64,000 nucleotides of DNA from Octopus vulgaris (Eukaryota), in contig OX597831.1 of NCBI GenBank assembly GCA_951406725.2, positions 67,580,001 through 67,644,000 on the forward strand, in the 5' to 3' direction. Below the pieces are notes generated by a model. That model worked only from the letters and a program-made list of their open reading frames with translations, was not told the DNA's origin and searched no databases. Made by a program: the position numbers and the translations under genes. The stretch's first letter is position 1, and the number at the start of each line of letters is the position of its first letter. Positions 11,416 through 60,158 of this stretch are shown here, piece after piece.

Positions 11416-14052
11416 CATTTTGCCTGACTGTTCGTGACGAGAGGCGAGCGAGAACGCAGGGTGGACTTGAATGCCTACCTGCACAGCTTGCCACGACTTC
11501 CGCAGAGTAATGCGAAGGTGCCATCACGGCGGCAGAAGTGCGGGACGCGATGGCAGAATGCTCGAAGGACAAATCGTCGGGTTTGGATGGTCTACACTAA
11601 GAGATTTACAGTTGTATGTTTGGAGACGTCTTGACAGCAGTGTACTGCAACTGGCAGCAAAACGTGAGCATCCCCGGTTTTATGAGCCGAGGAGCTGTAA
11701 AGCTGCTGAAGAAAGATCCAAACAAATGGGACATAAAGGATAACTTTAGGCCCGTCACTCTGTTCAATGCAGACTTGAAAATGTTGGCCAAGGTGTTAGC
11801 CAAGAGGTTGGTGCTTGTCATCGACAAACTGGTCGACAAAGCGCAAACGTGCGCTGTGCCGTTCCGGACCGTCTATGACAACCTCCATCTGATGCCCTAC
11901 ATCATAGACAGGGTAGTTAAGGAACCTAGCATGGGTGGTGCCCTGATCAATTTGGATCAATCGAAAGCTTTCGATAGGGTAGACCATCAATACTTGGAGG
12001 CTGTCCTCATAGCGGTTGGTTTCAGTCCCGTCTTCCGCGGCTGGATAGCTGCCTGGTACAGAGGCATCCGTTCGGTAATTCGCGTGAATAGACATTTATC
12101 GAGACCTTTCGACATTGCACGTTCGGTCCGTCAGGGATGCCCCCTCTTGTCGCTTCTGTACGTATTGACTCTCGAGCCACTACAACGGAAGCTGGCGACG
12201 CTGAGGGCGCATCCCGCGAGAATTGGTATGCGGGACGAGCGTGTCCGCATACGCGGACGACGTCACCGTCATTGTGTCTAGCCAGAAACACATCGAGCTG
12301 GTCGGCGAGATACTGAAAGACTACGAAGCGGTAACAGGAGCAAAAATCAACCGGGAAAAGTCAGCAGCATCTCCGTCGTGGGACGCTGGACCGACGGTCC
12401 GGTCGAGTTGCTCGGGGTCCGGTTCGGTCCAGATCTCCGTTTGGATGTCTGGACCGAACCGGACCCCGAGCAACTCGACCGGACCGTCGGTCCAGCGTTC
12501 CACGACGGAGATGCTGCTGACTTTTCCCGGTTGATTTTTGCTCCTGTTACCGCTTCGTAGTCTTTCAGTATCTCGCCGACCAGCTCGATGTGTTTCTGGA
12601 ACGAAAAAACGAAAAAACGAGTAGGGTGGTCACTCTCGTCCGGCAATAGGCCGAGAGGAAGCTGTCCCTAAAAGGTCGGGCGGAGGTGGCGAACACGTAC
12701 ATCGTGTCCGTCATCTACTATCGCCTGACCGTCGTGCCTTGTCCCGACCCTACCATCACCAAACTGGAACGCATTCTCTTCCGCTTCATGTGGGAAGGAT
12801 GCGTTCCGATGGTCAGGTGATCCATTTGCTGCCAACACCCGTTAAAAGGAGGGTTGGGTATGCGGTGGTTGATGATGCGCAGACACGCGCCGAGACTGCG
12901 ACATCTCCGGCTCTACGTAGACAACGGTGAACATATGTGGTCACCGTTTGTGAGGCGCGCTTTCCTGCAGCTCGTCTCCATGATCGAACTGCAGTCGTGG
13001 ATCAAAAACAGGCCGAGAAAGGGCGAATGACACTGCCAGTGTCGCGTTGTTCTCGAGCAACTATGTCGTCCCGGGTCGACCATGAGCGATTGCAACACAA
13101 CCAAAGCATTCTATAGGGGATTAGTGGAGGGGAGGTACGACGACGATCTCGGTGCGAACCTGGGCGTCGACGAAGAATACCTGACTCGCCTGTTCAAGAC
13201 GACTTTCGGGCCGGGACCTATGGACAACTTCCAAAGATCTCTCGCCTGGCAGTGCTATCGAGAAGCGCTACCCGTTCGGGATAAGCTCTACAAGCATGGC
13301 TCGAGAAACACGGGGTTAACCTTCCCGAGATGCGGTCAGAACGACGAAACCGTTCTGCACGCACTCGTACAATGTCCAACCATTTCCGATCTGTGGGCCT
13401 ATGTCGAACGGCTGCTATCGCGCCTGGGATGAATCAGTTTATCAACCGAGTCTATCGTGAATATTGTCGTGCCTCTTTCCTTGAAACGAGAATGAAGAGC
13501 CATTTTTATCGTACTTGTGGCTATGGTGAAAGAATGTGTATGGTGGACGCGTCTGAAAGGTCTAGAGACAAACACTTTCCTCTCTGGTCAATCTCTCATC
13601 AGCTTCTTCAAGTGTCACTTGAAGAGGAAGGTGTGATTAGAGAGGGAAGTTTTGTCTAGTGAATGTTTCAAAAAAAGATGGGTGAATGTAGCAAGGATGG
13701 CACATGTGAATGACGGAGCCAGCTTGAGCATAATCCTATGAACCTAAAAAAAAAGAAAGGAGAAAAGAGAGTTACTTACTGTAATGTGTTTTTTGCATGA
13801 CATTATTGCCCAAGGTTACCGTGGTATTTTCCGTAGGCTTTTCTTTCCACGGATAAAAATAATCTATTTCCCCTTTTACATTATGACATTTCTGTGATAC
13901 ACGATCCTTATTGATCGCCTTCTTTTTCTTTCTTTCACGATCCCTTTTGATCGAATTTCTACTACCCCTTTTTTTCTTTCCTTCCCCAAAAGAAAAGCTC
14001 TACTTCGTATTTTGTCCCCTCTGTGTTCAGCCCTGTGTGGCCAATAAAGAAG
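11296..14052 (+). mobile_element. Older 5'-truncated Tx1/L1 LINE: decayed RT, zf-RVT region and 3' tail
   Basis: NFRPVTLFNADLK, LDQSKAFDRVDH, SVRQGCPL, AYADDV and ETVLHALVQC motifs, colinear with ORF2 at 37021. Ends ccctgtgtggccaataaagaa before (TCTG)/(TCTA)n. Confidence 0.92.
12282..12599. repeat. Near-perfect palindrome with 152-bp arms and a 14-nt spacer inside the old Tx1 RT
   Basis: 12282-12433 vs 12448-12599; one mismatch seen. Confidence 0.95.
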
Positions 14053-14055
14053 CAT

Positions 14056-14333
14056 TATCTATCTGTCTGTCTGTCTGTCTTGTCTAATCTGTCTTGTCTT
14101 GTCTAATCTGTCTGTCTGTCTGTCTGTCTCTCTAATCTTATCTGTCTATGTCTAATCTTATCTCTCTCTCTCTCTCTCTCTCTCTCTCTCTCGCTATCTA
14201 TCTATCTACCTACCTATCTGTCTATTTATCTATCTATCTATCTATCTATCTATCTATCTATCTATCTATCTATCTATCTATCTATCTATCTATCTATCTA
14301 TCTATCTATCTATCTATCTAATCTTATCTATCT
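14056..14333. repeat. Compound (TCTG)/(TC)/(TCTA)n microsatellite
   Basis: Directly visible. Confidence 0.9.
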
Positions 14334-58200: not shown

Positions 58201-59935
58201 TCTGTATTTTTAAAATCCTTTCTTTCAAAAGTTCTATATCACATTTCTGTCAACTGGACTAATATATCGAACGTTCAAAAGATTTTATAAAAGAAATGTG
58301 TATGTGTGTGTCTGTGTGTATGTGCGTGCATACGAATTACGAGTCAGTTCGAATAAAACGGAAGAAAAAATAAATCAACGAAGCAATGAAAAAGTCTCGT
58401 CAAAAGGGAGAAATTCCAACTTACATATAACAGATAATCTAAAAAAAGTTCGCAACTGTAATAATGAACATTAAAGAGAAACTAAATAATTTTGTCCTGT
58501 TATCAAAAATTAGGTCTGAACCGATCTGATTGACAAAGAATTTTGAAAAGGTTTTTATTAGTGCCTTTTGACTGAAGTCAAACGGTCAAATCCATTCAAC
58601 TATGTGGTTAATCTTTAGCGACAACATTGCAGGACTTCGAAACTATTTTCAACGGGATGGGAAATGCGGTCAGGTAGAACTGTCTTCAATAACCCAAGTA
58701 ATGCTATATTTATATTGCATCTGACCATCTCCTTCGAAACAAATTAACTATTTAGTTTTGTTTTCAATGATTTTGACATATTTTCGATGTAGTTGCAAAT
58801 AAATTACGTTCTAAATTTATTTTTGATTTCTATATAAAATATATGACCATGCAACGCATGACTTGCATAGCTGGAGCGTACGCCACCGATATAAGATGGA
58901 ACAAGAACGTAACAGGCGACAACAAAACATTCGGACAGTTAGACGATACGAAAAAGGACAGGAAAAAACAAGGACGGGTCATTCGATATATATATATATG
59001 TATAGTTATATAAATAATTCTATCTTCTTGTACATTTAACAATAGAATGAATAGAAGGGTGAGCAAGCAGAAGTCGAGGTTTCAATTCATCATAATCTGT
59101 TTATTTTTAAGAAATTATATCGGACAAAAGAAGCAAAGTTCTTTTCATTAAATGATGTAGTTCTGTAGTTATTGATTGATGTTTAGAGTAAATTTCATTT
59201 ATTTGGTTAACTTGTGAGAATATGAACATATGAGAAAGAGAGAGAGGGGGGGGAGAAAGAAAGAAAAAGAGGGAGACACACACACACACTGAGAGAGAAT
59301 GAGAGAAAGAGAGTGAAGAGAGATATAGAGCCACGTGTATGTCAACCCCCATAGTAGATTAAATTTGATAGCGGCTCAGATAGTTCGTGACATAGATTCT
59401 CATTGTTGACAAGTCTAGCTGTTAAACCAACAACTGATGGCCGAATAACAACAGATGAATGATTTTATATCAGGGTTGGATGATTCGTAATCAAACAAAT
59501 TGATTGACTAGTTTAATTCCAATATCATCAATTGATATGATGTGCGTTTGAGAAATCTAAATAATCAAGTTTTTGCTACCTTTAGTGAGTCGAATTGATG
59601 TGTATTAAAAAATCCCAGTTATTCAGTTTTGTGATGACGTCGTCAGTCAATTTGAGGAGTCCGGTTATTTATTGAAAGATCTGATTGGAAATAAATCCGG
59701 CTTGGAATCTTTGGCAGAGACCTTCACACTACACAGTTAGTTATGCAGCAACGAGCGAAATTACTATATCCGAAAGTATGATTTGCTACTAATGTTTATA
59801 AGTTACGCAGAAAATGGCAAGTAAACAACGAAAGATGTGGTTTTTAATGTATTTACGATATAGTGTAGTATATCGAAAGATTGATGTGATGCGAGGCCAG
59901 TAATATGATTCACAGACTTCAGAAGAGAATCTGAA

Positions 59936-60158
59936 CTTGGCAGACACGTTAGCGCGCCGGGCGAAATGCTTAGCGGTATTTCGTCTGTCGTTACGTTCTA
60001 AGTTCAAATTCCGTCGAGGTCAACTTTGCCTTTCATCCTTTCGGGGTTGATAAATAAAGTGCCAGTTTCGCACTGGGGGCGATATAATCGACTCAATCCC
60101 TTCGTCTGTCCTTGTTTGTCCCCTCTGTGTTTAGCCCCTTGTGGGCAGTAAAGAAATA
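59936..60158 (+). mobile_element. SINE family B (Tx1-like tail)
   Basis: Match to 21197-21420; tail gccccttgtgggcagtaaagaaa. Confidence 0.9.

What the first reader, a model, noticed from the sequence alone, without database searches (positions are those of the whole stretch)
13990..60158. One covarying 3' hairpin links Tx1 LINEs, the ORF1-only element and a SINE family
Seen, 3' ends: old Tx1 tttgtcccctctgtgttca-GCC-ctgtgt-GGC-caataaagaa (14011-14051); young Tx1 GCC-cttgt-GGC-caataaa (40708-40725); SINE B tttgtcccctctgtgttta-GCCC-cttgt-GGGC-agtaaagaaa (60115-60157, also ~21400, ~28110 minus, ~53270); SINE B alternative tail AGGC-cttgt-GCCT (19080-19068 minus); ORF1-only units ttgtcccctctgtgtttc-GACT-ctttgt-GGTT-aataaa (~4240-4200 minus). 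The loop is conserved while the stem changes or flips yet stays paired. Known: stringent LINEs (L2, CR1, RTE) recognise 3' stem-loops shared with partner SINEs, whereas mammalian L1 uses poly(A). Inference: a stringent L1/Tx1-clade system with three tiers of users.
Basis: partly seen in the sequence, partly recalled or inferred. Interest (0 to 1): 0.78.

Follow-up and report, generated by a model that had tools for sequence, protein, structure and literature searches.

The report
Shared tail hairpin of octopus retrotransposons
In this likely octopus genome, many families of self-copying LINE elements, their ORF1-only derivatives and over 100,000 short SINE copies end in a small paired-stem motif whose two arms change together, which likely lets the LINE enzyme pick and position its RNA, a mode thought rare in this group of elements.

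Summary
L1/Tx1-type copies chosen by protein alone end in a 4-6 bp stem just before AATAAAGA (60 of 68; other AATAAA sites 136 of 537). Across 18 autonomous family representatives, all nine changes at the three inner pairs hit both arms together. Copies end about 12 nt past that signal, with target duplications and no poly(A). Several ORF1-only families and three SINE tails carry the same motif; SINE B's tail best matches the ORF1-only family, and its stem matches young LINE families outside the window. Corrections: the loop is conserved only in one branch; the window's ORF1-only stem is a weak variant; the alternative SINE tail shares only about 20 nt. The hairpin is thermodynamically marginal, RNAalifold missed it, and recognition by ORF2 is inferred, not tested. 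Stringent L1s are known in plants and algae; I found no animal Tx1-SINE shared tail in print. Side finding: several families insert just upstream of hammerhead-like motifs. Verdict: new variant of a known kind.

The parts
11311..14055 (+). Old 5'-truncated, decayed L1/Tx1-type LINE; tail stem 14029-14042, AATAAA 14043-14048, then (TATC)-type repeat
   Evidence: family 3' ends
35664..40735 (+). Young L1/Tx1-type LINE, 5' part lost in an assembly gap; ORF2 37018-40454 with one frameshift near 39850; tail stem 40708-40718, AATAAA 40720-40725, then (ATT)n
40765..44361 (+). Second, head-to-tail copy of the young LINE (5' UTR, ORF1 40968-42842, start of ORF2), cut off by another repeat
6140..7119 (-). 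ORF1-only unit 1 (5'-truncated); tail stem 6158-6145
4196..6135 (-). ORF1-only unit 2 (5' UTR, decayed ORF1, 3' UTR, no ORF2; interrupted by a 430-bp repeat); tail stem 4221-4208
2603..4190 (-). ORF1-only unit 3 (3'-truncated), third member of the tandem run
59938..60158 (+). SINE with tail B; stem GCCC/GGGC
21197..21423 (+). SINE with tail B; 13-nt target duplication
28087..28311 (-). SINE with tail B; one stem pair broken; 17-nt target duplication
53064..53296 (+). SINE with tail B; outer stem pair broken
19060..19237 (-). SINE with the same head and body but tail A; flipped stem AGGC/GCCT 19080-19068

Best explanation
A radiation of L1/Tx1-type LINEs, several ORF1-only derivative families and three SINE tails share a 3'-terminal stem with compensatory changes, which likely forms an RNA hairpin that the LINE ORF2 protein reads by shape to choose its template and to fix where reverse transcription starts. 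Shown from sequence: the stem sits 0-3 nt before AATAAAGA; both arms change together between families; copies end about 11-15 nt after the first A of that signal and run straight into a target duplication without poly(A); ORF1-only units of 1.7-2.1 kb and SINE B copies have their own target duplications. Inferred: ORF2 binds the hairpin; non-autonomous elements keep it under selection to borrow ORF2 in trans; SINE B took its tail from the ORF1-only family H1 or a common ancestor and later matched the stem of the younger LINE families; the conserved TCTRTGT upstream is predicted to pair with AATAAAGA as a lower stem.
For: 60 of 68 protein-selected copies have a stem of 4 bp or more before the terminal signal, against 136 of 537 other AATAAA sites. 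In 30 family representatives 116 of 120 stem cells pair; 0 of 20,000 arm swaps between families reach that, also for the 18 autonomous ones and for the 15 distinct arms. On a tree of the 18 autonomous representatives the three inner pairs need 3, 2 and 4 changes, each shared by both arms, and all 54 cells are Watson-Crick. Outer pair in SINE tails A and C: A-U 19, G-U 22, U-A 46, unpaired 13 among the first 100 of 27,913 matches (counted by hand; many U-A rows are tandem copies). A-run of 8 or more after the signal: 1 of 97 LINE/ORF1-only ends, 0 of 38 SINE B ends. Target duplications: 14-25 nt in 9 of 25 long LINE loci, 9-28 nt matches in 17 of 38 SINE B copies against 0 of 38 controls, 10-22 nt around ORF1-only units. 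No ORF2 in 21 extended ORF1-only loci. SINE B tail versus family H1: 50 of 57 identical, best partner for 30 of 30 copies. SINE tails keep the stem while AATAAA drifts to AGTAAA, AGTAGA or AATTTG.
Against: No functional test. The stem is short: mean folding z-score -0.83, only 4 of 30 at or below -2, and several window-type tails positive. RNAalifold on the sequence-only alignment predicted no pair. The register was fitted to the stem, so pair counts lean towards it and some 'double changes' may be register slips; a fit-free chimera test was weaker (own 26 of 30 versus 53-57% of 870 chimeras). The lower stem is 87.7% paired but not above shuffles (38 of 500 reach it). Families are related, and the terminal-signal rule was written after viewing the sequences. 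SINE tails A and C match sampled partners only over about 20 nt (scores 32 against shuffle maxima 25 and 22). No autonomous family with the SINE B insertion preference (many duplications begin GGTA) was identified. All data come from one genome.
Confidence: 0.65

Rival explanations
1. The hairpin is real but serves RNA 3'-end formation or stability (presenting AAUAAA, blocking exonucleases), not template choice by ORF2; recognition is relaxed and uses the A-rich end.
For: It abuts a canonical AATAAA in most LINE and ORF1-only families; any RNA-level benefit would give the same covariation.
Against: SINE tails, presumably polymerase III products, keep the stem and lose AATAAA. Insertions carry no poly(A) and end at a fixed distance from the stem.
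Confidence: 0.2
2. Only SINE B belongs to the system; tails A and C come from another LINE clade and resemble the Tx1 hairpin by convergence.
For: Their match to sampled Tx1/ORF1-only ends is about 20 nt and only just above shuffles. 3' ends of RTE, CR1, L2 and R4 families of this genome were not examined.
Against: ORF1-only families carry the identical stem-loop (AGGC-cttgt-GCCT, GGGC-cttgt-GCCT, TGGC-cttgt-GCC) followed by a similar A-rich end, and an autonomous family carries the flipped stem with a 6-nt loop.
Confidence: 0.25
3. The likeness is only shared descent plus chance pairing of short G/C runs; no structure is selected.
For: A quarter of arbitrary AATAAA sites have a 4-bp stem upstream; folding energies are weak; the five window examples can be explained by few substitutions.
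Against: A/U-rich families pair with entirely different letters (GATT/AATC, AAAATC/GATTTT, GATC/GATC, ACCT/AGGT); nine of nine inner-pair changes are double.
Confidence: 0.05

Closest known systems
Stringent monocot L1 lineage with ZmSINE2/ZmSINE3, and Chlamydomonas L1-1_CR with SINEX-3_CR (PMC3472496, PMC3747384; passages and Table 1 read)
   Same: L1-clade LINE and SINE share a 3' end; hairpin with compensatory changes, variable stem, conserved flanks.
   Different: Here an animal genome, many LINE families at once, an ORF1-only tier, no poly(A), and target-specific insertion. Table 1 of PMC3747384 lists no animal L1 or Tx1 pair.
Crocodilian SINEU and Tx1-Mar (PMC4494074; passages and the SINEU-1 section read)
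   Same: SINEs thought to be moved by Tx1 elements; Tx1 families target repeats and microsatellites.
   Different: That link rests on shared targets; the paper found no LINE similar to the SINEU-1 3' half. Here the tail itself is shared.
HAL1, HeT-A and Ag-Sponge ORF1-only elements (as summarised in PMC5786205; the HAL1 paper itself was not held)
   Same: Non-autonomous LINE derivatives that keep ORF1 and both ends.
   Different: Derived from a Tx1-type lineage, several families, often in tandem, and apparently the donor of a SINE tail.
Eel UnaL2/UnaSINE and zebrafish ZfL2 stringent LINEs (abstract start of PMC4176376 seen; details recalled)
   Same: Works like them: a short 3' stem-loop shared with partner SINEs.
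   Different: Those are L2-clade elements with experimental proof.
Octopus CORE-SINEs OR1/OR2 (named in PMC4758252 and PMC4824008; identity of the window's SINE with them is recalled, not tested)
   Same: tRNA-type head and central domain with exchangeable tails, very abundant.
   Different: The passages read name no partner LINE for them.

Membership tests
L1 clade in the wide sense (L1 + Tx1) | ORF2 with N-terminal APE endonuclease, RT and C-terminal zinc-binding region, behind an ORF1 | tested here: met
   Pfam PF03372, PF00078, PF13966; best solved relative human LINE-1 ORF2p, E 2e-51
Tx1 clade | RT phylogeny groups with named Tx1 elements | tested here: inconclusive
   The tree holds no named Tx1 reference; names were not available
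Tx1 clade | Target-sequence preference | tested here: met
   Young family followed by (ATT)n in 46 of 49 ends, old family by TATC-type repeats in 17 of 21; other families share fixed flanks
Tx1 clade | ORF1 with ZCCHC3-like RNA-binding domains and a CCHC knuckle (feature recalled) | tested here: inconclusive
   No Pfam hit; Atlas hits 0.90-0.93 to CCHC and ZCCHC3-domain clusters, a lead only; a CCHC motif is visible in the translation
Stringent-type LINE | 3' end shared with a SINE | tested here: met
Stringent-type LINE | 3' stem-loop with compensatory changes | tested here: met
   not recovered by RNAalifold
Stringent-type LINE | 3' UTR or stem-loop required for retrotransposition | not testable with these tools
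   needs a cell assay
HAL1-like ORF1-only element | ORF1 and both ends, no ORF2, own target duplication | tested here: met
   ORF1 about 30-43% identical to sampled LINE ORF1s in the longer matches
tRNA-derived CORE-SINE (OR1/OR2) | tRNA-derived head and CORE domain | tested here: inconclusive
   ARAGORN and Rfam found nothing; no CORE or OR reference sequence was available
Type I hammerhead ribozyme (flanking motif) | CUGANGA and GAAA core, stems I and II, NUH site | tested here: inconclusive
   Own descriptor matches; Rfam found none in 12 loci; cleavage untested

The most novel reading that the evidence does not exclude
The octopus SINE explosion was driven by an animal Tx1 radiation that reads a sequence-free hairpin, with an ORF1-only parasite donating the main SINE tail; and families that insert just upstream of Penelope-type hammerhead ribozymes use them to cut their read-through RNA, leaving a target-matching 3' extension that primes reverse transcription in place of poly(A).
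Probability: 0.15. Interest if true: 0.85.

Novelty: new variant of a known kind. Interest (0 to 1): 0.62.

Why it matters
Ohshima proposed that L1-clade elements were first stringent and that mammals and most plants relaxed to poly(A) recognition, on only three plant and algal SINE pairs. An animal L1/Tx1 lineage with a covarying hairpin, many intact young copies (open ORF2 frames of 1125-1148 aa) and natural stem variants would make that testable. It would also name the likely engine behind a large share of octopus SINEs (at least 78,239 exact tail-B and 27,913 tail-A/C matches), whose partner I did not find named in the papers searched.

Tried and rejected
RNAalifold on the MAFFT alignment of 30 tails gave no consensus pair, probably because the stem sits 0-3 nt from AATAAA and loops are 4-7 nt. 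The lower stem was not supported by covariation. Rfam found no hammerhead in 12 loci and nothing on the SINE; ARAGORN found no tRNA. The first tree run timed out and was replaced by FastTree. The tool that gives DNA around relatives in other species was closed, so tails outside this genome are untested. No RNA holder was listed for the young LINE; contigs of four runs cover the tail but cannot show ends or expression. No GIY-YIG frame was seen beside the hammerhead-like repeats; Penelope-type RT fragments lie near two of 20. Earlier scan notes: none. Literature searches for Tx1 with stem-loop, tail, non-autonomous ORF1, octopus, hammerhead or Penelope target gave no report of an animal Tx1-SINE shared tail or of Tx1 targeting hammerheads. 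Repbase, Dfam, subscription papers (Ohshima and Okada 1994, Bao and Jurka 2010, Kojima and Fujiwara 2004) and the supplements of the papers read, including the curated library of PMC13282606, were not seen and could hold such records. Rejected: that the two window LINEs are SINE B's closest partners; that one loop sequence is universal.
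Full report
Setting. The window is G000:C18:67580001-67644000 in a 2.8-Gb assembly of 227 contigs. Genome size and my recollection of the SINE suggest an octopus; this is inference. A repeat study of Octopus vulgaris reports SINEs at 11.6% of the genome and 13 recently active L1-Tx1 families (PMC13282606; first third of the text read). The window holds a decayed LINE (11311-14055), two head-to-tail copies of a young LINE (35664-44361), three tandem ORF1-only units (2603-7119, minus) and five near-complete SINE copies. 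ORF2 has endonuclease, RT and zf-RVT domains and its best solved relative is human LINE-1 ORF2p. 'Tx1' rests on target preference and an ORF1 lead; the RT tree lacks named references.

The observation. All five tails are present as quoted. A pattern with fixed flanks and loop but free stem gave 1569 matches and 0 controls. Of the 30 loci fetched, 15 lie behind the SINE body, 14 behind the old LINE's 3' UTR and one gave no probe hit. The window examples alone are weak proof of covariation, since GCC versus GCCC may be a register shift and two SINE copies have broken pairs.

A test not selected on the tail. I took copies by the zf-RVT protein family (70 of 150 listed places fetched; three duplicates dropped, one locus with two copies, 68 rows). 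Two rows had no terminal signal; 60 of 68 have a stem of 4 bp or more ending 0-3 nt before it, against 136 of 537 other AATAAA sites (seven tail-selected rows in that output are left out here). These copies fall into about a dozen families and subfamilies, so they are not independent, and the signal rule was written after I saw the sequences. The stems differ completely: GCCC/GGGT, GATT/AATC, AAAATC/GATTTT, GATC/GATC, ACCT/AGGT, AACC/GGTT. A search for flipped stems found 38 matches and 0 controls. Of the 30 fetched, five belong to a further autonomous family (TGGC-ctgtgt-GCCR, ORF2 about 50% identical to the window's) and many to ORF1-only families with AGGC/GCCT, GGGC/GCCT or TGGC/GCCA.

Covariation. 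On a tree from the ORF2 3' region, the three inner pairs need 3, 2 and 4 changes and every one is shared by both arms; mismatched column pairs share 0-3. Against: the register is fitted; a fit-free chimera test gave 26 of 30 against 53-57%; RNAalifold found nothing; mean z-score is -0.83. Loops are 4-7 nt and mostly end in GT or AT, so the loop is not one sequence. Single-sequence folds often extend the stem by pairing TCTRTGT with AATAAAGA, but those columns barely vary and do not beat shuffles.

The three tiers. ORF1-only units have no ORF2 in 21 extended loci, measure 1.7-2.1 kb and carry 10-22 nt duplications in several cases. Their ORF1 is only about 30-43% identical to any sampled LINE ORF1 in the longer matches, so they are old lineages that kept the tail. 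One SINE head and body carries three tails: B 68, A 50, C 14, unclassified 20 of 152 copies in my loci, a biased sample; exact tail matches number 78,239 for B and 27,913 for A plus C. Tail B is closest to ORF1-only family H1 (30 of 30 copies; 50 of 57 nt), while its stem-loop and end equal those of two young LINE families absent from the window. Tails A and C share about 20 nt with other ORF1-only families; no autonomous partner with those tails was found.

Ends and targets. An A-run of 8 or more follows the signal in 1 of 97 LINE or ORF1-only ends and 0 of 38 SINE B ends. Where a duplication is clear it begins mostly 11-15 nt, usually 12, after the first A of the signal, in LINEs, ORF1-only units and SINE B alike. 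Targets differ by family: (ATT)n for the young window family, which forms 5.87-kb tandem arrays (26 of 49 ends run into their own 5' end), (TATC)n for the old one, fixed repeats for others. Many SINE B duplications begin GGTA, often inside another SINE. So shared targets do not tie the three tiers of this window together, although one ORF1-only family and one autonomous family with unlike stems share a target, which fits reading by shape.

Mechanism. Shown: the shared terminal motif, compensation between families, fixed 3' junction, no poly(A), independent insertion of the non-autonomous tiers. Inferred: ORF2 binds the hairpin and starts reverse transcription about 12 nt downstream; dependants keep it to borrow ORF2. 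A fixed end without poly(A), also in arrays where transcripts would read through, needs a positioning signal, and SINEs keep the stem while losing AATAAA. I put this at 0.65, a role in RNA processing or stability at 0.2.

Side finding. In 23 of 97 ends a minimal type I hammerhead-like motif lies in sense 33-83 nt downstream (relaxed score, threshold chosen afterwards; antisense 0 of 97, distant windows 4 of 366); a strict descriptor gave 5 of 97 against 0 of 386. They fall into about five target repeats of 230-480 nt, some in tandem. Such motifs are typical of Penelope terminal repeats (PMC4209133, passages read) and retrozymes (bioRxiv 10.64898/2026.07.22.740005, passages read). The plain reading is insertion into a harmless repeat; use of the ribozyme is speculation.

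What is known. Stringent L1-clade pairs with compensatory hairpins are described in monocots and Chlamydomonas, only three SINEs in all (PMC3472496, PMC3747384; passages, Table 1). SINEU is tied to Tx1 by targets only (PMC4494074). ORF1-only HAL1, HeT-A and Ag-Sponge are known (PMC5786205, passages). Bivalve SINEs use CR1, CR1-Zenon, L2 and Nimb partners (PMC11481361, passages). PMC4758252, PMC4824008, PMC3531059 and PMC8967140 (passages) name octopus SINEs without a partner in what I read. Ten searches found no animal Tx1-SINE shared tail, but Repbase, Dfam and supplements were not seen.

Verdict. Real, wider than reported, a new variant of a known kind. Interest 0.62.

Noticed in passing
3' flanks in L259, L265, L269, L271, L276, L277, L279, L286, L288-L292, L294, L296, L299, L206, L212, L218, L221, L226, L231: LINE and ORF1-only copies sit in sense 33-83 nt upstream of minimal hammerhead-like motifs in short repeats, likely Penelope terminal repeats or retrozymes; not found in print in the searches made.
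   Followed up: partly
window 35664-44361; G000 C4:93.80-93.84 Mb, C50, C47, C2:73.05 Mb: Several LINE families form head-to-tail arrays (periods about 5.2-5.9 kb), many copies with open ORF2; the young window family joins through (ATT)n.
   Followed up: partly
L301 3' flank; L287 5' end: A sequence that I recall as the start of U1 snRNA follows one LINE end directly, and a short piece of it stands at the 5' end of another, as in crocodilian Tx1/SINEU.
   Followed up: no
G000 C1:5373540-5405872 and C1:5768420-5769015; C1:652587-653169: SINE tails C and B occur in tandem runs with periods of about 115 and 184 bp; SINE B often inserts at one position inside another SINE head.
   Followed up: no
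window 3711-4141, 5376-5860, 8516-8956, 14717-15162, 15704-16123, 19239-19649, 20214-20656: Seven copies of a 430-bp repeat with inverted ends and a short telomere-like stretch, MITE-like; two interrupt ORF1-only units.
   Followed up: no
window 16575-16997, 26519-26935, 31385-31828, 44363-44769, 45254-45494: A second SINE-like family; one copy truncates the second young LINE. Its tail was not examined.
   Followed up: no
window 1700-2600 (-): Decayed Penelope-type reverse transcriptase fragment (motifs recalled) directly beside the truncated ORF1-only unit.
   Followed up: partly
window 1-860 (-): Start of another LINE-like frame, by recall of the R4/Dong type.
   Followed up: no
window 35564-35663: 100-base assembly gap that removes the 5' part of the first young LINE copy.
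   Followed up: yes
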